From Mycoplasmoides pneumoniae FH (GTDB taxonomy: Bacteria; Bacillota_I; Bacilli_A; Mycoplasmatales; Mycoplasmoidaceae): a stretch of 32,000 nucleotides of DNA. The position numbers were made by a program, and so were the translations under genes. Under the pieces are notes generated by a model, which saw nothing but the letters and a program-made list of their open reading frames with translations, made no database searches and was not told where the DNA came from. This document shows, in pieces, positions 921 through 29,943 of the stretch; positions within the stretch are counted from its first letter, which is position 1, and every line of letters begins with the position of its first letter. Location of the stretch: positions 602,809-634,808 of the forward strand of contig NZ_CP010546.1 in assembly GCF_001272835.1 (NCBI RefSeq), in the 5' to 3' direction.

Positions 921-1236
921 AAAAAAGCCATCTGCCCAAGGTGAAAAAAACAGACGGCTTTTTGGCGATTTTGAAATTAACAGCAAGTTGTAACTTTTAG
1001 TGATTTGAATGAAAGGAATATATGACCTTTATTCTTTTAAAAAAAGAGATACATCAATTGTGCTGAAAGCCATTGCGTTAACATAAATAAATTAAGACAT
1101 AAAAAATAAACACATTAATCAAATAAGTGTGGGAACAGAAAATTAGGCTTTCAACACAAAATTTTCGTTTTCCTGCCCCCACTAAATAAATTGAGTTGGG
1201 TTTTAAAAAGCGTCAAAAATTTTAATTTAGTTTTTG
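921..1236 (+). repeat. Left copy of the imperfect direct repeat (RepMP1-type flank) bracketing the adhesin-cassette block
   Basis: aaaaaagccatctgcccaaggtgaaaaaaacagacggc (921-958), the acagcaagttgtaac segment, ggctttcaacacaa...ctgcccccactaaataaattgag (1146-1195) and gcgtcaaaaatttt all have recognisable counterparts in the same order at 4364-4640. Confidence 0.7.
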
Positions 1237-2554: not shown

Positions 2555-2596
2555 TTAACTAACAAAATTAATAAATAGGTCTATAGGTTATATTAG

Positions 2597-4432: not shown

Positions 4433-4640
4433 CGCAAGGTGTTAGTTTGATGTAGAGGCAAAACTATGAATTTACTAAATTTTATTTAAATCAGCGGGAG
4501 CAGGCTCGTTTTTTCAACACAAGTCACTCTGTCTGCTCCCACTAAATAAATTGAGACAGATGTTCAAAGTCGCCAAAGAGTTTGAATATTTTTGCAATTT
4601 GGGTTTGTAATCCCTTCTAACTATTAATAGGAACTTTTAC
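4364..4640 (+). repeat. Right copy of the imperfect direct repeat bracketing the adhesin-cassette block
   Basis: aaaaaagccatctacccagaggtaagaggcagacagc (4364-4400), the aacgcaaggtgttag segment, ggctcgttttttcaacacaa...ctgctcccactaaataaattgag (4503-4555) and gtcgccaaagagttt are collinear with 921-1236. The outer end of this copy is approximate. Confidence 0.7.
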
Positions 4641-4822
4641 TTTCAAAAAAGTTTTGAAGTTATTTTGGTGTCTTTACTAACTTTAAGTAATTTAGTTAGT
4701 GTAAGCACAAAAACCGTTATGTGTAATGTTTTTATTAATTTAGCAAAACAGCTGAACTTAGTTGGCAGCACTACTGCAAGTTGTAGTTTTCCCAACCTCT
4801 TTCAGAAAGGAGGTATTGCTTA

Positions 4823-5203
4823 ATGAAAGAGAAAATTTCCGAAAAGGAATACAAAGCTTTAATCCGTAAAACTGGCAAAGAGCACTTTGATGGTGAAAAA
4901 GAAGAGTATGGTGATGGCACAGTTGGAGTTTGAACTTATGAATTGCGAAAATATAAACTTAAACCACCTGTGAAAGTTAAATACGTAACCCAAGAACAAT
5001 TTCAGGAATATAAAGATTCCAACAATCAGCGACTCATAAAGATTGAAAATAAGGTTGATAAATTAGTTGAAATTGTTCAAATTCACGGCGAACAAATTAA
5101 AGCACAGGGAGAAACCCTGCAATTAATTTTGCAAACGCTGCAAAAGATGAGTGATCGCTTGGACAAGATGGAAAAAAGAATAGACAAACTTGAGTCCAAA
5201 TAA
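4823..5203 (+). CDS. DUF16 / RepMP1-family coiled-coil protein (126 aa under table 4), short paralog of 230..841
   Basis: ATG at 4823 lies 9 nt after GAAAGGAGG (4805-4813). It is in frame with track ORF 4943..5203, with one TGA read as Trp (GVWTYEL). The N-terminus [10 protein letters not shown] and the C-terminus [26 protein letters not shown] are shared with the first copy. It lacks both the 21-bp array and the 84-bp duplication. Confidence 0.85.
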
Positions 5204-9337: not shown

Positions 9338-9456
9338 TTCAAAAGCAGTTTTTCAAAATTCTTGATTTACCTTTAAAAGTATCAGCAACACAATAAAATT
9401 AACTGTTTGCAAGAGCTCTTTTAAAGCCTTTTAAAAGAAATTAAACTTTTATTGTT

Positions 9457-10548
9457 GTGCAAATTAGGACTTACAAAATCAAAGATATTTGCGACATTCA
9501 ACGTGGTCGTGGTATCACTAAGGAATACATTAAAAATAACTCTGGAAAATATCCTGTTTATTCTGCCGCTACTACCAATAACGGTGAGTTAGGTTTTATT
9601 AATACTTACGATTTTGCTGGTGAATATGTTACCTGAACCACTAACGGCTATGCTGGCGTTGTTTTCTATCGTAATGGCAAATTTAGTGCATCACAAGACT
9701 GTGGTGTTTTAAAAGTAAGAAACAAGGAAATTAACGCTCAATTTTTAGCTTTTGCTTTAAGTTTAAAAACACCTCAATTTGTCCATAATTTGGGATCAAG
9801 ACCTAAATTAAACCGAAATGTGGTAGCTGAAATCTCCTTAGATTTTCCACCTCTAGAAGTTCAAGAAAAAATTGCTCATTTTCTCAAATCTTTTAATGAA
9901 TTAAGCAGCCAGTTAAAAGCTGAATTAATTAAACGACAAAAGCAATACGCATTTTACAGTGATTATCTACTCAATCCTAAACATTCACAAGGTGAAGAAT
10001 ACAAACTCTTTAAACTCAAAGATATAGCTAAAAAGATTTTAGTTGGCGGTGAAAAGCCAAGTGATTTCCAAAAAGAAAAGGATCAAGTTTATAAATACCC
10101 TATTCTTTCTAATAGTCGCAAAGCAGACGATTTTTTAGGCTACAGCAAAACGTTTAGAATTGCTGAAAAATCAATTACAGTTAGTGCAAGAGGCACAATT
10201 GGTGCTGTTTTTTACCGTGATTTTTCCTACTTACCCGCTGTTAGTCTAATTTGCTTTATTCCTAAGCCAGAATTTAATATTAAGTTTTTGTTTCATGCTT
10301 TAAAAGCGACTAAATTCCACAAACAAGGTTCTGGCACAGGACAGTTAACCATGGCACAGTTTAAAGAATATCAGGTTTATATTCCATCTTTAAAAAAACA
10401 ACAAGAAATTGCTGCCACTTTGGATCCACTTTACTATATCTTTGCAAATTCTAATTGAGGAATATACAAAGAAATAGAATTGCGCAAAAAGCAAATGCAA
10501 TACTATCAAGAACGTTTGTTTCAGTGAATAGAAAACCAAAAAGTTTAA
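9457..10548 (+). CDS. hsdS: Type I restriction-modification specificity subunit HsdS (363 aa under table 4), with no adjacent hsdM or hsdR
   Basis: The frame of track ORF 9790..10458 extends upstream through TGA 9634-9636 to GTG 9457 (a TAA stop lies at 9442-9444) and downstream through two TGA codons to TAA 10546-10548. Two target-recognition half-domains begin YKIKDICDIQRGRGITKEY and FKLKDIAKKILVGGEKP. Each is followed by a conserved helical spacer, PPLEVQEKIAHFLKSFNELSSQLKAELIKRQKQYAFY and PSLKKQQEIAATLDPLYYI...ELRKKQMQYYQERLF. The start codon is uncertain. Confidence 0.85.
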
Positions 10549-10575: not shown

Positions 10576-12486
10576 TTAAGCGCTTAAAAGAACAAAGTGT
10601 AAATAGCTGGCTAGATCAACTACCGGTGGTTTGGTAGCTCCGGTGACTAGTTCTAAATCATGCAAGTTTTGTCCTCTCAATAAATTCATAAAGTTTGGAT
10701 CGGCAAATGAAATCTGTTCTTTGACATACAATGTAAATAACAATTCATCCTTGTCATTAAACTGGAAGAGAGAACCAGGATAGTCTTTTTTAGCAACGGT
10801 GTAAACTGGAATTGATCCATCAACAATGAACTTTAAGTTCATTTCACCACTTCAAGAGCTTGGGAATTTAGTAAATAAAGCTGCAAAAGCATAGAAACCA
10901 TACAATTGGTAACCACCGGTATATTTAATGTCCACTTCAAATCGATAATTAAAGGGATTAGCTTTATCTTGTTTTATTCCAACACCATCTATTCAATTAA
11001 TGGTTGGACTTTCAATTTTATTTTGAACTTTTAATTCCTTAATCTTTAGATTGATGTTGGATTTGCTAGTAAGTTCACCGCGCAATCAATCGGACATGTA
11101 AATTCCATTTAAACCATCTTTAGGGAATTGGATTCCTTGACTACCAAAGGCCTTTTGCTTCGCATCGTTATTTTCTTTTTTAGCGTTGTAATACCAATCA
11201 ATGGCAGTTCGAAATCCAGCAATTAAGAAACTGAAAGTTCTGTTTCTATCTGCTTCCAAGGAGATTTTTAAAGCCTCTGCTAACTGTTTTTTATCAGTGA
11301 CATCTTTGTTCTTCTTACTTCAATATTGTTTGAATTCTGATGCAGCTGTTAGAGATTTGTTAAAAGCTTCTCTTTCTGCTTCGAGTTTTTTAACTTCCTC
11401 TGCTTTTGCTTTGGCCTCTGCTTCTTGAAGTTTACGCTCCTCTTCTAGTTTCCTTAACTTTTCAACGTGCTCAGCATGTGCTTTTTCTCTTTCTTGCTTG
11501 AAAGGATTGAGTACTTTTTCCCTAAATTTAGTTGCAACATCTGTTTGGTTATTTATTTCAATAACTGATTCTGTCAGGTTAACTTTAGTATCAAATAAAG
11601 AATCACCTAAAGCAGTTTGAGCAAGTGTAGTTAAATCATTTGTGCCGTTTGAAATTAGCTTATGCACTGATGGTTTTCAAAACAGTTGGGTATTTAAATC
11701 TTTACCAGATTGTCAGAAACTGTCTTGTAAATCTGTTAGATTGGCAAAATTAGTAGTGGATGCGTTGAGTGCAAACTGTAAATCTATCGTGCTACCATCA
11801 CCTTCATAAATAGTTGCAAAATCCATTTGGATGGAAAAACTATAACAAACTTTGCCCTGAATGACTATGTCGTTTTTTCGCTCTAAATTTAAATCAAAGT
11901 TTTTGAGTGCAATCGACTTAAGGTTATATTGATCGAATAATGCAGCAATATTGTCAGCAATCTTTAAACCCTTTGGATGTAATTGCGGAAAGAAACCATC
12001 ACCAAGTAAACCAAAAAGCTTTTGTGACACTTTAGGAATTTTAGTGCTGTCGGAAACAGGAAACACAGCATTAGCTGCATTTATTTCTGCTTGAAGTTGA
12101 TTCATTAAATTAACCGTGTTTTGCACACTTTGTTTAAAACCACTAAGAAGGTTATAAACATCAATTAAACCTAATGTTTTTGGACTTAAAGCTTGTTTGA
12201 CAAAGTCCTTTTCAAATTGTTCAAAGTTGTGCTTTCAATCCTTATTTTTCGCTATTACAGCTAACTCTTCCTCACTAAAAGTAGATGCGTTAGCAAGATT
12301 GACCAAGTAGCTGTCATTATGGGCTCTAGCTAAACTTTTATTGTGTAGTGCTAAAGTATTAATGTCAGCACTAGAACCTTTTTGAGTTAATGTAGGAAAT
12401 AAAAATGCGCCTAAAGTTACAGTAGTGGTACAAAAAGCCAGCAAAAACGCTTTTGTTTTGAAGCGAATTTTTTTAGTTGCTTTCAA
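10576..12486 (-). CDS. Paralog A of a four-member tandem family (636 aa, intact): N-terminal signal or anchor, central Glu/Lys/Arg coiled coil, conserved C-terminal domain
   Basis: Track ORFs 12235..12486, 11713..12126, 11320..11667 and 10576..10842 share a frame. I translated all gaps (12127-12234, 11668-11712, 10843-11319) and found only TGA codons. The start is TTG. Conserved family motifs are IDVYNLLSGF, FFPQLHPKGL, DWYYNAKK, DYPGSLFQF and PPVVDLASYLHF. It may belong to the mycoplasma MG032/MG096/MG288-type family, but that is from memory and unverified. Confidence 0.85.
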
Positions 12487-12604
12487 TTTAGTTGAGAAAT
12501 AAGCTAACTAAATTACTTATTAAACTAACGAAATCAATTAAGAATTAACTTTCAACCACAACAAAGTACTACAACAAACAGGGAAAATGTAATTTGTACG
12601 TAGT

Positions 12605-12610
12605 ATTTTA
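12605..12610 (-). promoter_or_regulatory. Candidate -10 box (TAAAAT on the minus strand) for paralog A
   Basis: The hexamer occupies the conserved position in an upstream block shared by all four paralogs. Only T2 follows it on the plus strand. Confidence 0.3.
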
Positions 12611-12652
12611 GTTCTTTCTTGTGAAATATTGCAAAAGTTAGCTAAATCGAAA

Positions 12653-14590
12653 TTAGCTCTTATCCGCTAAAATGAGAAAGTGGAGGTAGCTCGCTAAGTC
12701 TACTACTGGCACTTTAATGTCACCACCTCAAGGCTCTAATACATCGAGCTGTTGTTTCTTCAATAATCCTTTAAAGCGTTGATCCTGTACATTAATCCAC
12801 TGAGTAATGTGTAGAGTAAATAACAGCTTGTCATCCCTAAACTGGAATAAGGTTCCAGGATAGTCCTTTTTGGAAGTAATTCAATCTGCTAATTGTCCGT
12901 CAACATTGAGCACTAATTCCATTTCACCCTTCCATTCTGGAGGAATTCCACCAAGTCCTCAATTTGCTAAAGTTCAGTAAATACCTTTAAGTCCATAATC
13001 ACCGGTGTATTTCATTCTGATTTGGAAAGCATATTTAAACGGATAGGTTTGTCTAAACTCAATACCGTTCTTGGCTTCATTTCAGAAAATTTGTTTTGGT
13101 ACACCCCAACCATTAATGTCATTGTGAATATCTTTTGTAGTTACCGATTGCAGGTTCAACTTTAAGTTAGCTCTGTGTTTTAGCTCTCAGCGTAACCAGT
13201 TAGGGATAAAGATTCCATCAACACCTAGTTTTGGTAATTCAATGCCAACATCACCAAAGGCTTTTTTCTTGGAATCTTGATCATCCTTTTTGGCGTTGTA
13301 GTACCAATCAACAGCATTTCTAAAAGCATCGGTAAGGAAAATAAAAGTTCTGTTTCTATCAGTCTTAAAGGCCAGTTTAAGTACTTCAATAAGTTGCGAT
13401 TTAATTTCAACGTTTTTACCTTTTCCTTTTCAGTAATCTTTAAAACTTTTAACGTTATTGAATGAACTAAGAAAGCGTGTTTTTTCCCTAATTAACTCTT
13501 GAACTTTCTTTTCTTTACCTTTAAGTTCTTCTTCAAGCTGTTTACGTTCACGTTCTAAACGCGCTTGTTCTTCATCATGAATGCGTTTTGCTTCCTTACG
13601 TTGTTCAATGAATGGATTGAGGATGCGTTCCTCAAACGATTTGCGAGCTTTAGTTAAAACCGTTCCATCAATTACTGAATCAGTTAAGTTAACCTTAAGA
13701 TCAAACAGGTTTTCACCAATCGCTGTTCTTGCAATTGTGGTTAAGTCATTGCCCTCATCAGTAATTAATTTATCTATTACTGGTTTTCAGAACAATTGGG
13801 TTGAGAGTGTTTGACCACTATTAGTAAAACTTTCACGTAATTCCTCTAAAGAGCTAAAGTTATTCGTTTGAGCTTGCAGAGCAAAATCAAGGTCAATTTT
13901 GGTATTTTTGCCAACATAAACGGTATGAAATTTCATTTCGATGGCAAAACTATAGCGCACCTTGTTCTTTAAAACAATGTCGTTTTGTTTGAGCAACTGC
14001 AAGTTAAACGCTTTTAACTTAATTGAATTTAAGTTGTAGTCATTAAACAAAGAAGCAACCGTATCACTAATATTTAAACCACGTGGTGTTAATCTTGGGA
14101 AGTAATCTTCACCAAAAAAACTAAAGAAACCTTCTGGTACTTTAGGGATCGTGTTTTTGTCCTCTACGGGAAAAATCTCGTTAGCCGTATCCGCCCGTTT
14201 TTGTAAGTTGTTTGCTAAATTTACTAAAGCTTGGGCTTTTTGTTGAAACCCACTAAAGAGGTTATAAACATCAATGAGAGTAAAAGCTTGGGGATCAATA
14301 AGTTGGTCAGCAAACTTATTTTGGAACTCGCTAAAGTTTTGTTCTCAATCAGTGCGACTTGTAATCGTTTCGAACTCGGTTTGACTAAAAGACGAGTTGC
14401 GCTGCAATAAGTAACTCTTGTTGTGTCGCTTATCAAAGCTACTGCTATTTAAATTAACAGCATGTGGATCATTAGCTGAACCGTTCTGTGATAAGGTGGG
14501 TACTAGAAAAACGCTAAAAGTTAGCGTTGCTGAAAATAAAGACAGCAAAAACGCTTGCGTCTTGAAGTGAAAGTTTTTCGAAGATTTCAA
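12653..14590 (-). CDS. Paralog B (645 aa, intact)
   Basis: A single frame runs from TTG 14590 to TAA 12653-12655. I translated 14344-14051 and 13786-12653 codon by codon and found only TGA interruptions. Motifs are the same as in A. It is closest to paralog C. Confidence 0.85.
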
Positions 14591-14686
14591 AGATTCTTGT
14601 CAGTGTGACTAAAAGAAATAAATTAACTTACAGGTTACGAAATGCAGACAAAATAAAAGAAGCAACGGAAAATTTAAATTCAGAAA

Positions 14687-14692
14687 ATTCTA
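14687..14692 (-). promoter_or_regulatory. Candidate -10 box (TAGAAT on the minus strand) for paralog B, directly abutting the homopolymer
   Basis: The minus strand reads A16-C-TAGAAT-tttctgaatttaaattttcc. The same TAnAAT position is conserved upstream of paralogs A, C and D. Confidence 0.35.
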
Positions 14693-14693
14693 G

Positions 14694-14709
14694 TTTTTTT
14701 TTTTTTTTT
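14694..14709. repeat. Homopolymer T16 (A16 on the gene strand), immediately upstream of the candidate -10 box of paralog B
   Basis: Counted directly: 7 T at 14694-14700 plus 9 T at 14701-14709. The homologous position has T6 for paralog C (16870-16875), T5 for D (18960-18964) and T2 for A (12612-12613). Confidence 0.95.
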
Positions 14710-14843
14710 AGTTTGAACTCAAAACGGGTTGGTGAAAGAAACTGCAATAAGCTGTTGTAAATAACTTTAACTAAGTTAAAAACTGTTTCAAACTAACCAA
14801 GCTTACTTTTAGTGTGCCTTATTGGAAATTAATGTTGGCTTAA

Positions 14844-16776
14844 TTATTTATCTGCCAAAATTAAGAAGTGGAGGTAGCTCGCTAAATCCACAACTGGTAC
14901 TTTAATTTCACCACCTCAAGGTTCAATCACATCCAATTGCTGTTTCTTTAGCAGGTTCATGAAACGTTGATCCTTAACGGTAATACGTTGCACTACGTGT
15001 AGGGTAAACAACAGTTTGTCATTTTGAAATTGGAATAACGAACCAGGGTAATCTTGCTTTTGGGTAATCCAGTTAGCTAGCTTACCATCAATTTGGAACT
15101 TCAATTCCATGTCACCACTCCATTCTGGCGGAATGCCACCAAGACCCCAGTTAGCCAAAGTTCAGTAAATCCCTTTTAACCCATAGCTACCTTTGTAATT
15201 CATGGTTATTTCAAAACCATAAGTTCAAGGAGTGGTTGCTCTGTAATTAATGCCGTTGTTGTGGTCGTTCCAATTAATCGAAACAGGCACACCTCAACCA
15301 TAAACCTCAAAGTTGTTTTCCCTTACTTTGACATTTTGTAATTGAAGTTGAATATTAGCTCTGTTGATTAATTCCCAACGTAACCAGTTAGGCATAAAGA
15401 TGCCGTTAAGACCTGATTGAGCAAAGGAAATGCCGCCGCTACCAAATGCTGTACGTTTTGCTTCTTCATCGTGTTTTTTATCGTTGTAATACCAATTAAT
15501 AGCATTCCTAAAGGCATTGGTTAACAGTTCGAAAGTAGGGTTCTGCTTGGCTTGGAAGGAAAGCTTTAAGGCTTCGATTAGTTGCTTCTTGTCTGCTACA
15601 TTTTTACTGCGCTTAGCTCAGAACTCCTTAAAACTCTTAACGTCTCTAGTAGATTGGTAAAAGGCTCAATGTTCTTCACGAATACGACGAGCTTCATCTT
15701 CCTTGGCTTTCAATTCAGCTGCAATCCGTTTTCGTTCCGCCTCTAAGCGTCTTGCTTCTTCATCATGAATGCGCTTAGCTTCAACTCGTTCAGCGTGGAA
15801 CGGATCTAAGATCTTGTCCTCAAATGATTTTTGCGCTTGCTGTAAAACGCTTTGATCAATTATTGAATCAGTTAAGTTAACCTTGAGGTTAAACAAACTT
15901 TCACCAATTGCTGTTTTAGCAATGTTGGTAAGATCATTGCCACCATCTGTGGTTAATTGTTCTACCACTGGCTTTCAGAATAGATGGGTTGAAAGAGTGT
16001 TGCCATTGTTTTCAAAACTATCACGTAGTTCTTGTAAGCTAGTGAAGTTTATTGTTTGGGCTTGTAAACTAAACTTTAAAATAGTGGTGTTCTTTCCAGC
16101 GTAAACCGTGTCAAAGCCCATTTGAAGAGCGAAGTTGTAACGCACCTTATTCTTTAAAACAATGTCGTTTTGGCGCAACAGTTTTAGGTTAAAACCAGTA
16201 AAGTCAATTGAATTTAAGTTGTAGTCATTAAACAAGGAAGCCACATTATCGGCAATGTTCAAACCACGGGGAGTTAACCGCGGAAAGTAATCTTCCTGAA
16301 AGAAACTAAAGAAGTTTTCCGGCACTTTAGGGACAGTAAGCATTGTCCTCTACGGGAAAGATTTCGTTTGCCGCATTAACTCGTTTTTGCAAGTCATTGG
16401 CTACATTAACTAAACTGCGTGCTGTTTGTTCAAAACCACTAAAGAGGTTGTAAACATCTGTAAGTGTAAAATGCTCTGGGTCAATTGCTCGTTGGGCAAA
16501 CCGTTTTTGGAATTCACCAAAGTTTTGCGCTCAGTTAGTTTGCTTGGAAAGGTTTTCATACTCAGCGTTACTTAAAGCAGTTTTGCGCTTCAATAAGAAT
16601 TTCTTACTGTTATGCTTTTCAAAGCTACTGCTGTTTAAACTTACAGTTTGTGGATCAGTAGCTGAGCCATTTTGGGAAAAAGTGGGTACCACAAAAACAC
16701 TAAAAGTTAGTGTTGCTGAAAGGAGCGAAAGCAAAAATGATTGCGTCTTGAAGTGGAAACTTTTAGTTGGTTTCAA
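14844..16776 (-). pseudogene. Paralog C, split by a 1-nt frameshift into a 149-aa N-terminal ORF (16327..16776) and a 499-aa C-terminal ORF (14844..16343)
   Basis: The N-terminal frame from TTG 16776 runs into TAA at 16327-16329 (...FPVEDNAYCP*). The rest of the family sequence continues in another frame from ATG 16343 (MLTVPKVPENFFSFFQEDYFPRLTPRG...). Paralog B has 10 nt (tcgtgttttt) where C has 11 nt (cagtaagcatt) between the conserved tttaggga and gtcctctacggg. Both C fragments are otherwise free of non-TGA stops; I checked 16530-16327 and 15665-15159. Confidence 0.85.
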
Positions 16777-16862
16777 TGTAAAGGTGTCAGTGTGACAGAA
16801 AAAGATTGGTTTACTTTTAAAAAGTGAAAACTAAGACGACAGGGAAAATTTAAATTTAATAA

Positions 16863-16868
16863 ATTTTA
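16863..16868 (-). promoter_or_regulatory. Candidate -10 box (TAAAAT on the minus strand) for paralog C
   Basis: It occupies the conserved position in the shared upstream block gggaaaatttaaattt..aaattttag-T6. Confidence 0.3.
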
Positions 16869-16955
16869 GTTTTTTCACCGAACAAAAAACGGTTTCATCG
16901 GAAAATGAAGCATAAACGGCTCAAACAACTTTAAGAATGTTTAATGATGCCTTGA

Positions 16956-18860
16956 TTACTGTTGATTTAACTTCAACAGTTGGTAGTGTAAATAACTCGC
17001 TAAATCCACTACTGGCGGCTTTGTGGACTCGGTACGTAGTTCTAAGTTATGGAGGTTTTGTGACTTAATTAATTCCATGAATTCTGGCTCTTGCACCGTA
17101 ATTTTTTCTCACACATGGAGCTTAAATAACAGCTGTTGCTTTTGATCATCAAACTGGAACAACGAACCTGGGTAATCGGGCTTTTGGACAATCTCTCAAC
17201 TTAAATCACCATCAACAATAAATTTTAAATTCAATTTACCCTTTCACTCTCCGGGAATACCAGAAAACTTGGCAATAATGGCTTCTAATCAACTTAATTT
17301 GTAATTACCTTGATATTCAATGTCAATCTCAAAGCGGAAGTTGTAAGGTTTGTCTTGATTTCGCTTAATACCGATATCTTTGTTCCATTTAATGGTAGGA
17401 CTTATCTTTGAATCAGTTACCTTTAAGCTCTTTATGTCTAAGTTAATCTTGGCCTTTTCCCCTAGCTGTTTACGCAACCATTCCGACATAAAGATGCCCT
17501 TTAAACCAGATTGGGGAAAGGCGATACCTTGTGTACCAAAAGCAGTTTTAGCAGCCTCACTTTGATCTTCTTGGTCATTTGGGTAATAATTGCTAATACC
17601 GTCCTGGAAGTTCTTAATCAAAAAGGCAAAGGTCTTATTTTGTTCTTTGGCAAAGGAAAGTTTTAAAGCTTCTAACAGCTGCTTTTTATCGGTAACATCT
17701 TTCTTTTGCTTTTGCCAGTATTCTTTAAAGGCTTGCACTGACTCAAGCGATTTGCTTACTTCTGCTAGCTATTCAGCTTCCTTTTGTTTTTGTTTTAATT
17801 CTTCGAGCTGTTTTTGGCGTTGCTCCTCTAAGACTTTTTGGTGTGCTTGGTGTTCCGCTAGTGCCTTTTGCCGTGCTTCAATGAACGGTTTTAAAACAGT
17901 TGCTTCAAACCTTGATTCAGCCTCTTTTAGCACGGTTTGATCCAAAACTGACTTGGTTAAATTAGCTTGGGTGGTAAATAAATTATCACCAACAGCTGCT
18001 TTTGCTACAGTTGTTAAATCATTGTTATTACCCAACACTAACCGCTTGACCGTTGGCTTTCAAAAAAGTTGTGTAGTTAAGTTCTGGCCACGTAAAACCA
18101 AGCTGTCTTGCAATTCCTGTAAGTTAGCAAAATTAGTGGTCATTGCCTTAACTGAAAAAGCTAAGTTGGTTGTACTGTTTACACCCGTATAAACTGTTTC
18201 AAAATCTCATTGGATTACGAAGCTGTAACGCATCTTGTAGCGCTTCACAATGTCCGGTTGTTTTTCTAGTTTCAGATCAAACTGCTTTAACGCAATGCTT
18301 TGAAGTTTGTATTGTTGCAAAACTGTCGTAATATTCTCAGTCACATTTAAACCCTTAGGGGTTAATTGAGGAAAGAAATCACTACCCAAAATGGTAAACA
18401 GCTGTTCGGGTACTTGGGGCAATTGAAATGCCTCGTGCACCGGAAAAACGGCATTTGCTAGTAATACCTTTGCATTTAAGTCATTAATTAACTTAACGGT
18501 ATCACGCGTACTTTGTTCCAATCCACTCAACAGGTTGTAAACATCAATCACACCCAACTGTTGTGGGTTAAGCGAATTGTCCTTAAACTTAGTTTGCAAC
18601 TGTTCAAAGTTAGCCTTTCAGTTAGTGTGTTTGGTGGTGTAATCCAGGTCAGCTTGACTAATACCAGAATTAAATTGCAACTGGTAGCGGTTGCTTTGGT
18701 TTTGTTCAAAGCGTTGGTTGCTTAAGGTAAAGTCACTAACTGACTGGTTTGTTTTTTCAGTTAAAGTCGGTCAAACAACGATAGCTAGAGTAGTTGTTAA
18801 ACCAGCTAAGCTTAACGATAACGTTTTGAGAAGTAAACGTTTCTTTTTAATTAATTTCAA
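16956..18860 (-). pseudogene. Paralog D, interrupted by a single in-frame TAG (363-codon N-terminal part 17769..18860; the remainder runs to TAA at 16956-16958)
   Basis: A single frame runs from TTG 18860 to TAA 16956-16958. I translated 18860-18600, 18206-18039, 17768-17739 and 17288-16956. The only non-TGA stop is TAG at 17769-17771 (...ELKQKQKEAE*LAEVSKSLESVQAFKEYWQKQKK...). Family motifs continue in the same frame after it. Confidence 0.85.
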
Positions 18861-18952
18861 GTTTGGTTAAAAACGGTTTAACCAAATAGTTAAATTACTA
18901 ACCGAAATGAATTAAAGCAACTACAACAACAGAAAAATTTAATGCGTTAATA

Positions 18953-19010: not shown

Positions 19011-20342
19011 TTAGCTTTTATCGATTTGTTGCACCAGCCAGTCTTTGATTTCGCCATAATAACTAGAGATACTGCGCACTAGTGCTTGACCCACTTTTAA
19101 ACTTTTAATTTCACTAGCACAGGTAATATCAACCCCATACAGGTTAGCCACTTCTTCTGCTTCCATCATGTCAATTAAGCGGTGGGCAATTAGGGTACTG
19201 GTGTTGTTAATAATCTGTGATTTAAAGTTATCACCACCAATATTGCGCAGGTTAGCAAATGATTGATAGGACAGGATAACTACAGTATTGAACGAGCGGA
19301 CTTGCTCCAATACCACCCCCACATAGTGGCTCCCAAAATTACCAAATTCATCAGCAATAAAAAAGGTCGAGTTATCACTCGTTTCTTCCAAACTCGTAAT
19401 TGTTTGGCCAAAATCCAAAAAGATTAACTTGCCCAAGTACTTGGCATTAATCATGTCGTACATGCTGCTAATGGAAAACAAAACAGCATCTTGGCAGTTT
19501 GATAATATCTATCAATCCCACACCATTAGAATCGATTGAACCAATTTCCGCTAGTTCCCTGAGGTTTTCTCTTAAATTTTCAAAGTCCTTTGTGTCAATG
19601 GTTTGAACATGCTCCGTATAGTATTCATCAATTTTTTCTACAAAAATTTGATTGGAAGGTTGAAAGCGACCTTTTTCTTTCATTTCTAAAATTTCTTTTC
19701 GGCGTTTTTCTTTGTGAATTTTTTTAAACAAACTGGGTTCAAATTTAGCAAAAATATCAAAGTCACGTAGTAATACTTCATTTGTCCTTTGCTACAGTAA
19801 CGCGCTAAATTCTTAAAACTCAAATTGTGGGGACCTTCCTTTGCAATTACTAAAGGTACTAAAACTTGCAAAATGGCCTTCTTATTACGTCAATAATAAG
19901 CACTGTCCTTGGTGTTTTCCACCATATCGTTATAACCAAACATTTCCAAGATTAAAGTAATGATTTGTTTGGGTGTTTTTTACTTAAACGGGTTGTACTT
20001 AATCGTGGCAATTCTGTCATCTAAGCTCCAAATTTTGGCACTAGTATTTTTGAGTGCCACTAACTTAACCGTATCAAAACCGTCTTCGGGACTTAGTTGT
20101 TTGGCGCTCGTTTGGTAGTGTTCAAACTGGGTAATTAATTCCTTATCACCCTTACCATTCACAAAAATTAAGGGATGGTCGTTGTCAATTGCATACTTCA
20201 AAAAGTGCAGCAAGATATTGGACTTACCAAAACCACTCACACCTAGTACCGAGACGTGCTGGGGGAGCTTTTCCAGTTCCAAAAAACACTCCTCGTTTAA
20301 AAAGATTTTCTTACCAGTCTGGTTATTGATGTCCTGTTCCAT
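19011..20342 (-). pseudogene. Decayed VirD4/TraG/TraD-like type IV coupling-protein ATPase (P-loop NTPase), with no N-terminal transmembrane region
   Basis: Four ORF pieces are present. Piece 19980..20342 carries the Walker A context HVSVLGVSGFGKSNILLHFLKYAIDNDHPLIFVNGKGDKEL and IWSLDDRIATIKYNPFK, and ends at a true TAA (19980-19982). The same frame then continues (KTPKQIITLILEMFGYNDMVENTKDSAYYWRNKKAILQVLVPLVIAKEG...). The coding signal shifts frame near 19785-19795 and again near 19485-19510. The last piece, 19011..19481, has Walker B TFFIADEFGNF and the motif VVILSYQSFANL...NTSTLIAHRLIDMMEAEEVANLYG, typical of coupling proteins. Confidence 0.7.
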
Positions 20343-20450
20343 TACTAAAAAATAATTTGTACTGCAACTTCAAAGTTAACTTATTCTAATTTTGCTAGAT
20401 CATTGATTTCATTCACAGTTTCCCAACTTAGTTTTCACTGTTCAAACAAT

Positions 20451-20478
20451 TAAAAAAGCACCAGCTAGTGCCAGTGCT
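20451..20478 (-). terminator. Rho-independent terminator of rpoC
   Basis: The minus-strand RNA reads agcacugg-cacuag-cuggugcu, an 8-bp stem including two G-U pairs (20457-20478), followed by uuuuuu (plus-strand A6 at 20452-20457). It starts about 25 nt after the rpoC stop. Confidence 0.7.
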
Positions 20479-20503
20479 TCTTTAATCGATAGTTTAGTGG
20501 TTT

Positions 20504-23500
20504 TTAATACTCCTCTTGAACCGTTTTGGCACCGAGGTAGGCCAATTCTTCATCGGTTAAAAACCCAGTACCAGCCGGGATCTTACCCCCAATGATCACG
20601 TTTTCTTTCAACCCTAAGAGGTAGTCAACTTGGGTTTTTACCGCAGCATCGGTCAAGATCTTCTTGGTGTCTTGGAAGGATGCGGCACTCAAGAAGGAGT
20701 TCGACTTGCTGGCCGCCTCATCGATCCCAAACACCTGGTTAATGGCAATCACTGGCATCTTCCCCGACAGCAACAAGCTCTTGTTGAGTTCATTGAGGTG
20801 GTGACTGTGTACCAGTTGACCCACAAACAGGTTACTGCTGCCAGCATCGGTTACTTGGAGTAAGCTCGTCAACTGGCGGATAATAATTTCGACATACTTA
20901 TCAGCAATCTCAATCCCCTGAATACGGTACACCTTTTGGATTTCGACAATCATGTACTGGCGTACCCGTTGGATCCCAGCAACCCGTAATAACTGGCGAA
21001 TGTCAATCGAACCTTCGGTAATCTTCGAACCTAGTTCTACTGCATCACCGACCTTGACACGCAGTTGCGCACTAAACGGAATCGAGTAAGTGCGTTCATC
21101 GACACTAGATTCAATCAACACTTCCTGCGCGTTTTGGGTGGTAGTAATCGATTTAACTACCCCCTTAACTTCAGAAATGACACAGCGCTCGTAATCCTTA
21201 GGGGCGACTACTTCAAAGATTTGCTTTAAACGTTCAAACCCTTGGGCCAAGTTGTTTTCGGTCGAAACCCCCCCGGTGTGGAAGGTACGCATCGTTAACT
21301 GGGTTCCTGGTTCACCGATCGATTGCGCTGCAATTACACCCACAGCGGTACCCAATTCCACCAGTTTGCCGGTGGACAAATCGACCCCGAAACAGTACTG
21401 ACACACGCCGTTTTCGCGTTCACAGTAAATCACAGAGCGCACTAACACTTGTTTAATCGAAGTGGCACAAATTTGCTTGGCTAACTCTTGGGTAATTAGG
21501 CTGTTAGCAGGGACAATTTCCGCCTTGGTTTCGGGATCTAAAATTGGTCCAATCGTGTAACGGTTGACAATGCGGTCAAACAGTGATTCCACCAACGAAC
21601 GGGTTTTGGTTTCCACAATTGCTTCGACCACAATTCCCTTGCGTGTACCACATTCATCGTGGTTAATAATCAATTCGTGGGTTGCATCCACCAGTTTACG
21701 GGTCATGTAACCAGACTTAGCCGTTTTCATGGCGGTATCGGTCATCCCCTTACGCGCCCCATAAGATGAGTTGAAGTACTCGTTAATCGTTAAACCTTCC
21801 AGGAAGGAGTGCTTAATAGGAACCTCAATCGTGTCCTTAATAATTTTGGACTGGTTGTTGCGTTCATAGTTAAAGCTCTTACTCATTAACCCCCGCATCC
21901 CAAACAGCTGGGTAAAGTTGGAGATATTACCCCGCGCCCCGGAATCGGCCATGACAACAATCGAGTTATCACGGTACTCTTCACGTTTAATTAAGTCCTG
22001 GATCTCACTCGACACCTTTTCCTTCACACCGTTTCACAGTTTCACCACCCGTTTATACCGTTCATCATCGGTCAGTAAACCCTTGTTGTAAAACTGCTTG
22101 TACTTCAAGACCTGTTGGTCCGCTTCATCAAAGTACTGCTGTTTGTTGGAGTACTTCGGAATATCAAACACCGATACAGTGGTGGAAGAGTGGGTCGAGT
22201 ACTTAAAGCCTAAGGCCTTAATGTTGTCCAAGATCCGTGGTAGATCCTTAAATTCAACCACCGTGTAAAGTAAGTCAATTAACTTGGAGATGACCTTCTT
22301 ACCAAAGGCAGGGAGCACTTGGTGTGCGGCAATCGCAGCACGCACATCACCACTTGGTGGTACTATGAACTTTTGCGGACACGCATGTTCATCAAATTCC
22401 CCTTCATTAATGTAAGGGATGTTGTCCCCTAACACATCGTTAAAGATAATCTTACCAACCGTAGTGATTAGAGTACCTTGAGCTTCAAAGTGCTTGTTTG
22501 GAAAGGCTTTGGTGCTAATGCCGACAATGGCGTGGAGGTGCACCTTGCCCGCTTCGTATGCCGCGCGGGCTTCATGCACGGTACCAAAGATGATGCCTTC
22601 ACCCGTTTGACCCTTACGCTCAGTAGTGAGGTAATAGTTACCTAACACCATGTCCTGGGTTGGGGTGACAATTGGCCGGCCATCTTTTAGTCCCAAGATG
22701 TGCTTGGAAGCTAACAGAATAGCACGCGCTTCGTTAACGGCATTTTCGCTCAACGGAACGTGCACCGCCATCTGGTCACCGTCAAAGTCAGCGTTAAAAG
22801 CAGTGGTCACTAACGGGTGTAGGCGAATCGCTTTCCCATCGACAATCCGCGGTTCAAAGGCCTGTATTCCCAAACGGTGCAAAGTAGGTGCCCGGTTTAA
22901 TAACACCGGACGGTCCTTAATGACATCATACACAATCCCCCAGATCAGGTCGTCCTGATTTTTAATCATGTCCTCCGCTTGCCGAATCGAGGACGCAATT
23001 GGTCTAATTTCGTTACCGTTGCTGTCAAACTTATTAATTAACCCGTGAATAATAAATGGTTTGAACAGCTTGAGGATCATTAATGCTGGAATCCCGACCT
23101 CATACATCTTTAGTTCTGGACCCACCACAATTACACTCCGACCAGAATAGTCCACCCGTTTACCTAAAAGGTTGTGACGGAACAACCCTTGTTTCCCTTT
23201 TAAGCGGTCGGTGAGTGACTTCAAGGAACGTTTGTCTTTGGATAACGCTGGCTTGTGGCGCGACGAGTTGTCAAACAAGGCATCAACTGATTCTTGTAAC
23301 AAGCGCTTTTCGTTGTTAACCACAATGGCAGGTACGGTACCATCTTCCAAGATGCGGCGTAAACGGTCGTTACGGATAATTACCCTTCTGTAGAAGTTAT
23401 TAATGTCACTGGTGGTAAATTTAGCACCATCTAACTGGATAATCGGCCGGATGTCTGGCGGGATCACTGGCACCGTGTGCAGGATCATGTTTTTCGGGTG

Positions 23501-24376
23501 CAGCTTCGAATTTCTAAACCAGCTAATTGTTTCCAATTGACGCAAGATCTTTTTAACCTTAGCATACTCAACACTATCCTTCTTAGCCTTCCGTAACGCA
23601 TCATTGAGCTTACTAAACTCATAGTTAAGGTCAATCTTGTTGAGCAATTCTAAGATGGCTTCAGCCCCGATACCAACGCGGAAGCCAGTGTACTTCTTAA
23701 TGTAGTTAAAGGCATCATTTAAGGAGAACGGTAACGAACTGTTCTTTAAGCTTTCATAAAAGATCTTCCCCTTGCGGTAGTCTTCGCTACTCCTGTTCTT
23801 AATCAGGTTCCGGAAGATGTAACCGATCACCCGGCGCATTTTTTGCCGCGTGGTTAAAGAACCCTTGCCTGCTAAGTCCAACACTTCCTTAAACTTAAAC
23901 GGCATGATCTTGGGATCTTTGATCTTCCCAGTATCTAATACTATGTAGTTAACAAAGTACAAGACCTGTTCCACTTCCTTATAAGAGATGTTTAACACTA
24001 AGGAGATCTTGGAAGGGGAAGGCAGTTCCTTCGACATCCAGATGTGCGCTACCGGACTGACTAGGGCAATGTGGCCCATACGTTCCCGGCGCACAATTGA
24101 TTCGGTTACCCAAACACCACAGCGATCACAGCGCACGCCACGGTACTTAATCTTCTTAAACTTCCCACAAGCACACTCATAGTCCTTCACTGGACCAAAA
24201 ATGGCTTCATCAAACAAACCACCAGGTTCGGGTTTTAAGGACTTATAGTTAATCGTTTCCGCCTTGGTAACTTCCCCTTCGGATCAGTTTAGGATCGTGT
24301 CGTTGGAAGCAATCGAAAGCTTAATTGCCTTAATGTTCTTGTACAGCTTGTTGTTCTTTTTATTACGCTTTGTCAT
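20504..24376 (-). CDS. rpoC: DNA-directed RNA polymerase subunit beta' (1290 aa under table 4)
   Basis: Track ORFs 20504..22027 and 22034..24217 share a frame and are joined by one TGA (VVKLWNGVKEK). The N-terminus extends through one TGA to ATG 24376 (MTKRNKKNNKLYKNIKAIKLSIASNDTILNWSEGEVTK...). It has the zinc-binding motif YECACGKFKKIKYRGVRCDRCGV, the catalytic motif NADFDGDQM, and conserved C-terminal blocks. Confidence 0.97.
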
Positions 24377-24379
24377 TAA

Positions 24380-28555
<4,176 letters not shown>

Positions 28556-28647
28556 TCGTGTACAAAAAAGGGCTAAAAATAACAGTAAAAAGCCACTAAC
28601 AGCGACAAAAGGGCCGCATGCTAATGGGCTTTGTAAAGTTTGCTACA

Positions 28648-29211: not shown

Positions 29212-29943
29212 TTAATTTTTAGTTTTCTTTTTTGCAACCAATTTCGCTTTAGCAACCCACTCCTCATTACTTTTCCTTAATTCTTGAGCTTTTCTTTCTT
29301 TGATCAACTTAATAAGTTCATTGATTTTTGCTTGTGCTTTTTCCTTATAAAACTCATCAGTAGCTCTTCTAACAGCTTGCAGTTATTCTCTTTTATCGTG
29401 ATCAAAGGTGGTATATCATTCTGAGTCCAACTCTAATAAAGCGTCTTTTTTAGCAGAAGCTAGTCGTTCTTTAGCTTCTTTGGCATTTCAATGATCTTCT
29501 GATGGTAGTTTGGTGTCCATTGAAGATTTAAGGTACTTTTTTAATTCTTTGAGATGCTTCTTATCTTCGTTCTCTGATCATTTTTTAATGCTTTTTAAAT
29601 GCTTAATTAAATCTTTAGACTGATCGTCTTCTTTAAAGCTTCCTCCCTTTCTTAGACTTTTGAATAAACCTTCTATTCTATCCAATACCTCTTCTTTATG
29701 ATCATCCTCTAAGTTTTCCTCTAAATTTTTCTTAAATAAGAATTGAAAACAATAAACATCTTTTTTTATTAGTTTCACAACTACCAAAACTTTCACAGCT
29801 AAATTTATCAGTGTCTCACTTTTTTAATTCTTCTTTCGTTTTTAATTCAATTTCTTGAATTCTTTTTTTTGTTTTGCTTGTTCTTCTTTAGCTGCACACC
29901 CTCGGAAAAACTTATTAATCTCATCTCTCTTTGAGTTTTCCAT
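29212..29943 (-). pseudogene. Lys/Glu-rich hypothetical reading frame, apparently disrupted (in-frame TAA codons and possible homopolymer frameshifts)
   Basis: ATG 29943, track ORF 29578..29796 and the terminal TAA at 29212-29214 are all in one frame. That frame contains TAA at 29842-29844, 29824-29826 and 29383-29385. Between T8 (29863-29870) and T7 (29761-29767) a different frame is open (RIQEIELKTKEELKKWDTDKF...). The downstream part reads ...DSEWYTTFDHDKRE*LQAVRRATDEFYKEKAQAKINELIKLIKERKAQELRKSNEEWVAKAKL. Confidence 0.4.

What the first reader, a model, noticed from the sequence alone, without database searches (positions are those of the whole stretch)
19011..20342. Remnant of a type IV secretion / conjugative coupling-protein (VirD4/TraG/TraD-like) ATPase directly downstream of rpoC
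The fragments together encode the hallmark motifs of coupling proteins in the correct order. These are Walker A in the context hhhhG.SG.GKS...DxKGE (VLGVSGFGKSN...FVNGKGDKEL), the ...YNPF motif, Walker B (FFIADEFGNF), and the ...SYQSFANL...STLIAHRL.D...AEEVANLYG C-terminal block. The gene is broken by one TAA and two frameshifts and has no N-terminal membrane anchor. No other conjugation genes, integrase or relaxase are visible in the window. This may therefore be the last trace of an integrative conjugative or other mobile element that once entered this accessory region. The region also holds hsdS, the paralog array and repeat cassettes, all packed against the conserved rpoBC operon. A TAGAAT hexamer at 20383-20388 and the rpoC terminator at 20451-20478 suggest the remnant could still be transcribed on its own. 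I cannot tell from the sequence alone whether this has been described before.
Basis: partly seen in the sequence, partly recalled or inferred. Interest (0 to 1): 0.7.

Follow-up and report, generated by a model that had tools for sequence, protein, structure and literature searches.

The report
Dead conjugation coupling-protein gene remnant
Directly after rpoC, Mycoplasma pneumoniae carries the broken, silent remains (MPN_514 to MPN_513) of a DNA-transfer "coupling" ATPase whose intact relatives sit in conjugation gene clusters of other mycoplasmas, so it is a molecular fossil of a lost mobile element and not a working gene.

Summary
The window is Mycoplasmoides pneumoniae (genetic code 4). 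On the minus strand, 20342..19011 holds four ORF pieces (MPN_514, two unnamed ORFs, MPN_513). Joined, they give a ~450-aa protein interrupted by one TAA (19982..19980) and two compensating frameshifts. The repaired protein passes Pfam's thresholds for TrwB_AAD_bind and TraG-D_C. HerA, FtsK and ABC models do not reach threshold.

The closest relatives (about 30-39% identity) are intact 600-900-aa proteins with N-terminal membrane segments. They come from M. amphoriforme, M. testudinis and uncultured Mollicutes. In five uncultured contigs the gene heads a compact conjugation module: T4SS pilin, a polytopic membrane protein, and a VirB4 ATPase related to mycoplasma ICE TraE.

The M. pneumoniae copy lacks the membrane anchor, and profile searches find no other module gene in the window. 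Nothing comparable follows rpoC in M. genitalium, M. alvi or M. gallisepticum. Published data list MPN513/514 as their own weakly transcribed operon, non-essential and never seen by mass spectrometry.

Verdict: a pseudogenised type IV coupling protein, the last trace of a conjugative element (ICE or plasmid unresolved). NCBI already gives MPN_513 the domain name; the reconstruction and its clade context appear undescribed. Interest is modest.

The parts
20451..20479 (-). rpoC intrinsic-terminator-like hairpin (AAGCACTGG..CTGGTGCTT) followed by a T-run. It separates rpoBC from the remnant.
   Evidence: Sequence read. The terminator scan reports stem 20472..20457 plus T-run. A published operon table puts rpoBC (operon 372) and MPN513/514 (operon 373) in different units.
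20383..20388 (-). TAGAAT -10-like hexamer about 40 nt upstream of the MPN_514 ATG; a candidate promoter of the remnant.
   Evidence: ATGAAA-18-TAGAAT, 9 of 12 matches. Promoter-like sites in the region are not enriched over shuffles, so this is only a candidate.
20343..20375 (-). In-frame stretch upstream of the ATG (LWSCSTNYFLV). Alignment to relatives extends weakly into this stretch, and the open frame ends at the stop codon just upstream of it. This marks the 5' truncation boundary: the roughly 90-190 N-terminal residues that relatives carry before this point, including their membrane segments, are missing here.
   Evidence: tblastn alignments of P0045 (from 20375) and P0001 (from 20360). 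The stop codon immediately upstream is shown.
19983..20342 (-). Fragment A = MPN_514 (120 aa). It is the N-terminal part of the nucleotide-binding domain, with Walker A GVSGFGKS (20243..20220), FVNGKGD and YNPFK.
   Evidence: identical to ADK87276.1; 1 aa different from MPN_514 of M129. It is 35-39% identical to the M. testudinis and M. amphoriforme proteins.
19980..19982 (-). In-frame TAA. It replaces the residue that is D or N in relatives (NPFK[D/N]KT).
19792..19979 (-). Fragment B, in the same frame as A (KTPKQIITLILEMFGYNDMVENTKDSAYYWRNKKAILQVLVPLVIAKEGPHNLSFKNLARYCS). It contains the TGA = Trp codon at 19892..19890 and corresponds to the start of the helical middle domain.
   Evidence: It is annotated in strains as an 85-aa hypothetical ORF.
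19686..19791 (-). Interval containing frameshift 1 (net -1 nt), where the two reading frames overlap. The exact site is not resolvable.
19501..19685 (-). Fragment C, in the other frame (...EKIDEYYTEHVQTIDTKDFENLRENLRELAEIGSIDSNGVGLIDIIK). It is the end of the middle domain and is annotated in strains as a 71/87-aa hypothetical ORF.
   Evidence: tblastn frame -3 HSPs 19623..19501 with P0044 and P0046.
19490..19505 (-). Frameshift 2 (net +1 nt), which restores the original frame.
   Evidence: HSP boundaries at 19501/19502. Alignment of GVGLIDIIK | DAVLFSISS against relatives.
19011..19489 (-). Fragment D = MPN_513 (147/150 aa as annotated). It has Walker B FFIADEF (19364..19344), the SYQSFANL / STLIAHRL / AEEVANLYG block (TraG-D_C) and the terminal TAA at 19013..19011. 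A segment of about 31-35 aa present in relatives is missing near the C-terminus.
   Evidence: Pfam hits on this piece alone: TrwB_AAD_bind 34.0 bits and TraG-D_C 31.8 bits. NCBI product name 'type IV secretion system DNA-binding domain-containing protein'. Alignments.

Best explanation
The locus is a pseudogene of a type IV coupling protein (T4CP; the VirD4/TraG/TraD/TrwB superfamily).

In its intact form this kind of protein is a membrane-anchored hexameric ATPase. It receives relaxase-bound DNA and feeds it to a minimal Mollicutes-type T4SS made of a pilin, a VirB6-like channel protein and a VirB4 ATPase.

In the M. pneumoniae lineage an element carrying such a module lay next to rpoC. Deletions then removed everything except about 1.33 kb of the coupling-protein gene. 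The 5' end, which encoded the membrane anchor, was cut off right after the rpoC terminator. The rest then acquired an in-frame TAA, two compensating 1-nt frameshifts, a roughly 19-aa insertion and internal deletions.

Shown here:
- The family assignment.
- The breaks and the missing anchor.
- The absence of partner genes in the window.
- The absence of the gene at this position in three relatives.
- The conjugative context of its nearest relatives.
- Fixation of the broken state across the species.

Inferred:
- That the ancestor was part of a complete conjugative element.
- That the remnant has no function today. It is weakly transcribed from its own unit, but no protein has been detected.
For: Family assignment:
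- Pfam TrwB_AAD_bind and TraG-D_C score above their gathering thresholds; other P-loop families score below theirs.
- NCBIfam's best hits are conjugative TrbC, TraD and CD1115 VirD4-like models.
- A family profile hits DotL/IcmO at E = 4.6e-15.

Pseudogene state:
- One TAA and two frameshifts, confirmed by frame-specific tblastn HSPs.
- No N-terminal membrane segments, whereas P0001, L002, L003, the M. testudinis 812-aa ORF and L011 all have them.
- The same fragments occur in hundreds of contigs of both M. pneumoniae subtypes.

Conjugative ancestry:
- The remnant falls in a clade with the M. amphoriforme and M. testudinis proteins and with P0048/P0185, P0047, P0045, P0050 and P0052.
- In L011/L012, L014, L015, L001 and L002 the T4CP is followed by a T4SS_pilin, a polytopic protein matching Mbov_0396/MMCAP2_0566, and a VirB4 matching NF045975, 'Mbov_0397 family ICE element conjugal transfer ATPase', at E = 1e-108 to 1e-118. 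Some loci also carry SSB, ArdC or a MobC-like gene.
- Plasmid hits are Spiroplasma and Bacillus plasmid T4CP-like genes.

Accessory status:
- No homolog lies downstream of rpoC in M. genitalium, M. alvi or M. gallisepticum.
- mpn490-mpn514 is the largest dispensable block of the genome (PMC9825166; PMC8601177).
- GC is 37.3% in the remnant versus 46.3% in rpoC.

Silence:
- Expression 2.58 and 5.19 versus 9.41 for rpoC; detected in 0 MS experiments with 0 peptides; classed NE (PMC10920889 Suppl. Data 6).
- Low expression in all clinical isolates (PMC4559472).
Against: - No integrase, transposase, relaxase, att-like repeats or any other T4SS gene survives in the window. The former presence of a whole element is therefore inferred only from relatives.
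- In M. testudinis, one of the two closest named relatives, no VirB4 lies within 10 kb of the intact gene. Only a MobC-like gene, ParA and an R-M system are nearby. Some members of this clade may therefore not belong to complete T4SS modules.
- Walker A and Walker B are still intact and the two frameshifts compensate each other. This leaves a small possibility of residual or recent function.
- The rest of the M. pneumoniae genome could not be searched for partner genes.
Confidence: 0.88

Rival explanations
1. The pieces are not dead. MPN_514 (the Walker A half) and MPN_513 (the Walker B / TraG-D_C half), or a recoded full-length product, still act as a soluble split ATPase with a domesticated role such as DNA uptake, defence or recombination.
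For: - Both nucleotide-binding motifs are intact and the two frameshifts cancel each other.
- The locus forms its own transcription unit with measurable RNA.
- The fragments are nearly invariant across strains.
- The ProTInSeq table does not flag them as truncated or pseudogene.
Against: - No peptides in about 116 MS experiments, very low RNA, and classed non-essential.
- The membrane anchor is lost, and the middle domain is out of frame and shortened.
- The in-frame TAA replaces a residue in the conserved NPFK[D/N]KT stretch.
- No partner genes are present in the window.
- Near-identity among strains is expected anyway in this very clonal species, so it says nothing about selection.
Confidence: 0.05
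2. It is a remnant of an unrelated P-loop NTPase (HerA/FtsK-like translocase, ABC or AAA+), and the resemblance to coupling proteins is only superfamily-level.
For: - There are weak sub-threshold hits to AAA_16, DUF87/HerA, KaiC and FtsK_SpoIIIE around Walker A.
- A single-sequence PDB search gave BceA (an ABC ATPase) at E = 0.006 as its top hit.
Against: - All those hits are below their curated cut-offs and cover only the P-loop.
- The T4CP-specific models pass their cut-offs on the C-terminal domain.
- Full-length collinear alignment to T4CPs that carry TM anchors and sit in T4SS modules.
- The family profile hits DotL, and nothing else in the PDB at E <= 0.01.
Confidence: 0.02
3. The family is the same, but the history differs. 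The gene was not brought to this spot by an ICE. It descends from an integrated conjugative or mobilisable plasmid, or from an old, vertically inherited island of the Pneumoniae-clade ancestor that M. genitalium lost and M. testudinis and M. amphoriforme kept.
For: - Relatives occur on Spiroplasma and Bacillus plasmids.
- L003 and M. testudinis L007 carry ParA near the T4CP, and L011 and L007 carry a MobC/replication-relaxation-like gene.
- No integrase or DDE transposase was seen in any relative's locus.
- The two closest named relatives belong to the same clade as M. pneumoniae.
Against: - The remnant is no closer to the M. testudinis/M. amphoriforme pair (32.7% identity) than to uncultured P0185 (32.7%). 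Those two are 61% identical to each other, which does not look like simple vertical descent. The long pseudogene branch weakens this argument.
- VirB4 and VirB6-like neighbours of relatives match mycoplasma ICE families specifically.
Confidence: 0.35

Closest known systems
Type IV coupling proteins (TrwB of R388, VirD4, TraD/TraG, DotL/IcmO; Pfam PF10412 TrwB_AAD_bind + PF12696 TraG-D_C)
   Same: - Same nucleotide-binding domain, with Walker A and B in the same order.
- A helical insert lies between the two motifs.
- A C-terminal TraG-D_C block is present.
- Both Pfam models are passed, and the family profile matches DotL.
   Different: - The gene is broken: one stop and two frameshifts.
- It lacks the N-terminal transmembrane anchor.
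- It has no T4SS or relaxase partners nearby.
- Identity to proteobacterial T4CPs is very low. NCBIfam equivalog models for TraD and TrbC are matched only far below their cut-offs.
Mycoplasma integrative conjugative elements (MICE: ICEA, ICEB, ICEF, ...; CDS5 = TraG-like T4CP, CDS16 membrane protein, CDS17 = TraE/VirB4, CDS12 SSB)
   Same: In the nearest intact relatives the T4CP lies in modules whose VirB4 and polytopic membrane protein match the MICE-specific NCBIfam families. These are Mbov_0397 (E = 1e-108 to 1e-118) and Mbov_0396/MMCAP2_0566. SSB is nearby. Eroded MICE 'vestiges' are well known in M. agalactiae PG2 and M. bovis (PMC7466169).
   Different: - The VirB4 scores (363-394 bits) are below the family cut-off of 590.
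- The modules are more compact than MICE, and no DDE transposase (CDS22) was seen.
- I could not align the remnant with a canonical CDS5 sequence.
- MICEs have so far been reported only in the Hominis and Spiroplasma clades, and M. pneumoniae is described as deprived of them (PMC7466169).
TraG-like / 'TraM recognition domain' gene fragments on Spiroplasma citri pSci and other Spiroplasma plasmids
   Same: These are Mollicutes genes with homologous C-terminal domains (27-34% identity over about 120-160 aa), and they are often themselves truncated.
   Different: They are plasmid-borne, and they are more distant from the remnant than the M. testudinis / M. amphoriforme / P0185 clade is.
Short single-TM or soluble T4CP-like proteins of Firmicutes (Thomasclavelia about 458 aa; Bacillus small plasmids; CD1115-family VirD4-like)
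   Same: Their overall length is similar to the remnant (about 450 aa), with collinear alignment over 86-94% of it at 22-24% identity. There is a weak NF045973 hit.
   Different: They are much more distant than the Mollicutes clade. Even these keep an N-terminal TM helix (P0029) or a longer N-terminal region (Bacillus, 630 aa). The short length of the M. pneumoniae copy is therefore due to truncation, not to membership of a short family.

Membership tests
Type IV coupling protein (VirD4/TraG/TraD/TrwB superfamily) | FtsK/HerA-type nucleotide-binding domain with Walker A and Walker B, recognised by T4CP-specific profiles. | tested here: met
   GVSGFGKS and FFIADEF are present. PF10412 scores 37.9 bits (cut-off 20.5) and PF12696 scores 28.9 bits (cut-off 22). 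The family profile matches DotL at E = 4.6e-15.
Type IV coupling protein (VirD4/TraG/TraD/TrwB superfamily) | N-terminal transmembrane anchor. | tested here: not met
   Only 33 residues precede Walker A, and no hydrophobic segment is present. Homology ends at about 20375, next to the rpoC terminator. Relatives have 1-4 TM segments. This is interpreted as loss by 5' truncation.
Type IV coupling protein (VirD4/TraG/TraD/TrwB superfamily) | All-alpha domain inserted between Walker A and Walker B. | tested here: inconclusive
   The about 180-aa region between the motifs aligns collinearly with the corresponding region of relatives. It is shorter than in the MAG proteins and is out of frame. The AlphaFold model of relative P0001 was too poor (pLDDT 50) to confirm the fold.
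Type IV coupling protein (VirD4/TraG/TraD/TrwB superfamily) | Intact reading frame encoding a functional ATPase. | tested here: not met
   One TAA and two frameshifts, fixed across strains. No peptides detected by MS.
Type IV coupling protein (VirD4/TraG/TraD/TrwB superfamily) | Genetic linkage to a T4SS (VirB4) and/or a relaxase. | tested here: not met
   None in the 32-kb window by tblastn, Pfam or custom HMMs. The feature is met in relatives' loci L001, L002, L011/L012, L014 and L015. The rest of the genome was not searchable.
Mycoplasma ICE (MICE) vestige | Homology of the fragment to MICE backbone gene CDS5 (TraG). | not tested
   No canonical CDS5 sequence could be obtained with the tools. 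NCBIfam has no CDS5-specific model that hit. None of the top named relatives is from a known MICE host.
Mycoplasma ICE (MICE) vestige | Other backbone genes (CDS17 TraE, CDS16, CDS14, CDS22 DDE transposase) or inverted repeats / target duplications nearby. | tested here: not met
   No such genes or flanking repeats are present in the window. Relatives' neighbours match the Mbov_0396 and Mbov_0397 families, but below the curated cut-offs.

The most novel reading that the evidence does not exclude
The remnant, together with the intact homologs in M. testudinis and M. amphoriforme, is the first sign that the Pneumoniae clade of mycoplasmas once hosted, and in some species may still host, a MICE-related conjugative system of a distinct, compact lineage. 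Its layout is MobC-like, T4CP, pilin, VirB6-like, VirB4. M. pneumoniae, M. genitalium and M. gallisepticum are currently described as devoid of ICEs. Under this reading, the 30-kb dispensable block between recA and rpoC in M. pneumoniae is partly the decayed cargo of such an element.
Probability: 0.5. Interest if true: 0.5.

Novelty: new member of a known kind. Interest (0 to 1): 0.3.

Why it matters
M. pneumoniae is a model minimal cell and a chassis for engineered therapeutics. Reviews state that it, and the whole Pneumoniae clade, lack integrative conjugative elements and show little horizontal transfer (PMC7466169).

A decayed coupling-protein gene shows that the lineage was once exposed to conjugative DNA transfer. 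It has intact relatives in two species of the same clade and in T4SS modules of uncultured Mollicutes. It also marks the recA-rpoC accessory block as a former landing site.

In practice it has two uses. It corrects the annotation: four 'hypothetical' ORFs are really one pseudogene. It also points to M. testudinis, M. amphoriforme and the uncultured relatives as places to look for a working conjugation system that could serve as a genetic tool.

It does not reveal a new mechanism.

Tried and rejected
- **Structure prediction.** The AlphaFold2 model of relative P0001, built from a 5-sequence alignment, gave mean pLDDT 50 and pTM 0.29. This was too poor for a fold search, so I ran none.
- **Single-sequence PDB search.** It gave only marginal hits (BceA at 0.006, DotL at 0.016). 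I replaced it with the profile search.
- **Restricted inputs.** The repaired protein could not be submitted to the 1.84-billion-protein search. I used an alignment of exact fragments plus relatives instead.
- **Naming distant relatives.** A look-up of ten further AT-rich top hits returned no informative names. Whether canonical MICE CDS5 proteins lie among the more distant hits remains unknown.
- **M. amphoriforme locus.** The gene could not be fetched because its exact product is not on record.
- **Other remnants in the window.** I looked for other conjugation-gene remnants with tblastn and with custom HMMs for VirB4, VirB6-like, pilin and MobC-like proteins. Nothing credible came up. The best hit had E = 0.003 with high compositional bias, in a coiled-coil-like ORF at 29386..29823.
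- **Element boundaries.** I searched for att-like direct repeats bracketing the remnant. Only the paralog-array and DUF16 repeats appeared.
- **Lipoprotein link.** I tested whether the neighbouring DUF240/DUF237 paralogs resemble the large lipoproteins flanking T4CPs in MAG loci. They showed no similarity.
- **Promoter scan.** Promoter-like sites are not enriched over shuffles, so the TAGAAT hexamer remains only a candidate.
- **Literature.** Searches for MPN513/MPN514, TraG, coupling protein and pseudogene in M. pneumoniae found no paper that discusses this locus as a T4CP remnant.
Full report
**Identity of the window.** Exact look-up of the ORF pieces shows that the window is Mycoplasmoides (Mycoplasma) pneumoniae, with an FH-like (subtype 2) allele.
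- The 120-aa piece is MPN_514.
- The C-terminal piece is MPN_513.
- Two intervening ORFs of 85 aa and 71/87 aa are annotated as hypotheticals.

The organism reads TGA as Trp, so I redid all translations with code 4. On the minus strand rpoB is 28642..24380 and rpoC is 24379..20504.

**Check of the observation.** The description is accurate.
- The frame that starts at ATG 20342 reads MEQDINN...VLGVSGFGKSN...FVNGKGDKEL...YNPFK and meets a TAA at 19982..19980.
- It continues in the same frame (KTPKQIITLILEMFGY...) and then decays into junk, ending at 19686.
- A second frame is open from 19791 to 19468.
- The first frame resumes at 19508 and ends at the TAA at 19013..19011, with FFIADEFGNF, SYQSFANL, STLIAHRL and AEEVANLYG.
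- tblastn with intact relatives puts significant HSPs in exactly these three segments: frame -1 20333..~19710, frame -3 19623..19501, frame -1 19502..19065. The gene therefore has one nonsense codon and two mutually compensating frameshifts.
- The TAA replaces a residue that is D or N in the conserved NPFK[D/N]KT stretch of relatives.
- Only 33 residues precede Walker A. The open frame ends at a stop codon at about 20376-20378, roughly 75 nt after the rpoC terminator hairpin (20479..20451), and alignment to relatives reaches only weakly into the last residues before it.
- The same fragmentation is present in hundreds of contigs from both subtypes. It is therefore real and fixed in the species.

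**What it is.** The conceptually repaired 450-aa protein passes the Pfam gathering thresholds of the two T4CP models.
- TrwB_AAD_bind scores 37.9 bits (cut-off 20.5).
- TraG-D_C scores 28.9 bits (cut-off 22).
- AAA_16, DUF87/HerA, KaiC and FtsK_SpoIIIE remain below threshold and touch only the P-loop.
- NCBIfam's best, though sub-threshold, hits are conjugative TrbC, TraD, the CD1115 VirD4-like family and SXT TraD.
- A profile of the family hits a single PDB protein at E <= 0.01, the Legionella coupling protein DotL/IcmO (E = 4.6e-15).

**Relatives.**
- A word-indexed search found only one relative.
- A scan of GTDB genomes found three more, all in uncultured Mycoplasmataceae.
- An exhaustive HMMER search of 1.84 billion representatives found 3,730 family members at E <= 0.001.
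- Ranked by similarity to the M. pneumoniae sequence, the closest are the M. amphoriforme protein WP_343251531 (39% and 32% identity in the two domains) and the M. testudinis protein WP_052663560 (35% and 29%). Uncultured Mollicutes proteins P0048/P0185, P0047, P0045, P0050 and P0052 come next.
- In a rough NJ tree the remnant sits on a long branch inside this clade. It is equally distant (32.7% identity) from the M. testudinis/M. amphoriforme pair and from P0185.
- Relatives for which the N-terminus could be read under code 4 start with transmembrane segments. The annotated 639-aa M. amphoriforme protein shows none, but its locus could not be fetched to check the start. Even the short Thomasclavelia-type proteins keep one TM helix. 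The missing anchor in M. pneumoniae therefore reflects truncation.

**Context of relatives.** In L011/L012 (P0185), L014 (P0052), L015 (P0050), L001 (P0001) and L002 the T4CP heads a compact, conserved module. Its parts are:
- small ORF(s);
- a T4SS_pilin protein;
- a polytopic membrane protein of about 480-575 aa;
- an 811-929-aa ATPase;
- in some loci an upstream MobC/replication-relaxation-like gene, and SSB or ArdC nearby.

The ATPases tested (L011, L002) match NCBIfam NF045975, 'Mbov_0397 family ICE element conjugal transfer ATPase', at E = 1e-118 and 1e-108. The L011 polytopic protein matches the Mbov_0396 and MMCAP2_0566 conjugal-transfer families. All of these scores are below the curated cut-offs. 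The modules are thus related to the classical mycoplasma ICE backbone but not identical to it. Plasmid hits are T4CP-like genes of Spiroplasma and Bacillus plasmids. In M. testudinis the intact gene (an 812-aa ORF under code 4) lies near a MobC-like gene, ParA and an AlwI-type R-M system, and no VirB4 lies within 10 kb.

**Context in M. pneumoniae.** The window holds no other conjugation gene. Pfam annotation of the large ORFs gives:
- DUF16 genes;
- RepMP copies (P1_N and MgpC);
- lipoproteins;
- an orphan hsdS;
- a DUF240/DUF237 paralog array;
- rpoBC;
- an FMN reductase.

tblastn with all ORFs of the relatives' loci and custom HMMs for VirB4, VirB6-like, pilin and MobC-like proteins find nothing. 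No att-like repeats bracket the locus.

Downstream of rpoC, M. genitalium has an MgPa repeat and then recA, M. alvi has the suf operon, and M. gallisepticum has P116 paralogs. None shows T4CP similarity. The second refutation condition, a conserved intact ortholog at this position, is therefore not met either.

mpn490-mpn514 is described as the largest deletable block of the genome (PMC9825166; PMC8601177). The remnant's GC content is 37.3%, against 46.3% for rpoC.

**Activity.** In the ProTInSeq supplementary gene table (PMC10920889, Suppl. Data 6):
- MPN513 and MPN514 share operon 373, separate from rpoBC (operon 372).
- Their expression values are 2.58 and 5.19, against 9.41 for rpoC.
- They were detected in 0 MS experiments with 0 peptides.
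- They are classed non-essential.
- They are not flagged as truncated or pseudogene.

Expression is similarly low across clinical isolates (PMC4559472). The TAGAAT hexamer itself is only a candidate, because promoter-like sites are not enriched in the region.

**Interpretation.** The best explanation (confidence about 0.88) is a pseudogenised coupling protein, the last recognisable piece of a conjugative element of the Mollicutes type.

Shown here:
- family membership at the domain level;
- the lesions and the missing anchor;
- the lack of partner genes in the window;
- the lack of the gene at this position in three relatives;
- the conjugative context of the nearest relatives;
- fixation of the broken state in the species;
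- lack of detectable protein.

Inferred:
- that a complete element once lay here;
- that it was an ICE rather than an integrated plasmid, or rather than an older island inherited from the clade ancestor. I leave this last point open (rival, about 0.35).

A residual function of the fragments is unlikely (about 0.05), and an unrelated P-loop origin is essentially excluded.

**Novelty.** NCBI's pipeline already names MPN_513 a 'type IV secretion system DNA-binding domain-containing protein', so the domain hit is public. I found no paper in the searchable library that treats the four ORFs as one T4CP pseudogene or links it to conjugation. A review states that M. pneumoniae, M. genitalium and M. 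gallisepticum seem deprived of MICE, and that MICEs are known only from the Hominis and Spiroplasma clades (PMC7466169). The remnant, plus intact homologs in M. testudinis and M. amphoriforme, therefore adds a modest new point: the Pneumoniae clade has been in contact with MICE-related conjugative systems. I rate it as a new (degraded) member of a known kind, with interest about 0.3.

Noticed in passing
window 10576-18866 (-): An array of four DUF240/DUF237 paralogs with a 2.1-2.2 kb period. Two copies are intact (10576-12507 and 12653-14608). One is split by a frameshift (16327-16830 plus 14844-16349). One is split by an in-frame stop at 17769-17771 (17769-18866 plus 16956-17768). Pseudogenisation is therefore common in this block.
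   Followed up: partly
window 197-5203 (+); L008 11880-14300: GC-rich RepMP copies (P1_N at 1226-2554, MgpC at 2597-4432; 49-53% GC) are flanked by two DUF16 genes with 42-nt tandem repeats (DKMEVKM heptads). In M. genitalium a homologous MgPa repeat lies directly between rpoC and recA. The adhesin-repeat island is therefore the shared feature of this locus, and the rest is specific to M. pneumoniae.
   Followed up: partly
window 9445-10548 (+): An orphan type I restriction specificity gene (hsdS, two Methylase_S domains) with no hsdM or hsdR in the window. In M. testudinis the intact T4CP also lies next to an R-M system, of AlwI type.
   Followed up: no
L011 4330-16027; L014 653-8438; L015 1039-8973; L001 237-9224; L002 9386-16649: Uncultured Mollicutes contigs (code 4, 25-33% GC) share a compact conjugation module. 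Its order is MobC/replication-relaxation-like, T4CP, small ORF(s), T4SS pilin, polytopic Mbov_0396-like protein, VirB4_plasma-like ATPase, with SSB or ArdC in some loci. The VirB4 scores (363-394 bits) fall below the NCBIfam cut-off (590). This looks like a distinct, apparently undescribed relative of mycoplasma ICE backbones.
   Followed up: partly
L007 9677-12115: The M. testudinis T4CP is annotated as 704 aa, but the code-4 ORF is 812 aa. The extra N-terminal part contains the transmembrane segments, with TGA-encoded Trp residues. The database start is probably too far downstream.
   Followed up: no
window 20120-20176 (-), within MPN_514: M. pneumoniae has a roughly 19-aa insertion (TQFEHYQTSAKQLSPEDGF) after the GKGDKELI motif that is absent from all relatives. 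It also lacks about 31-35 aa that relatives have near the C-terminus.
   Followed up: no
literature: PMC10920889 Suppl. Data 6; PMC12205969: The M. pneumoniae reference gene table lists MPN513 and MPN514 as 'conserved hypothetical proteins' with the truncated/pseudogene flag set to 0. Separately, the 2025 Mollicutes ICE survey names 'M. pneumoniae' among cattle-group ICE/IME hosts while also stating that no HGT was detected in M. pneumoniae. This is probably a naming slip.
   Followed up: no
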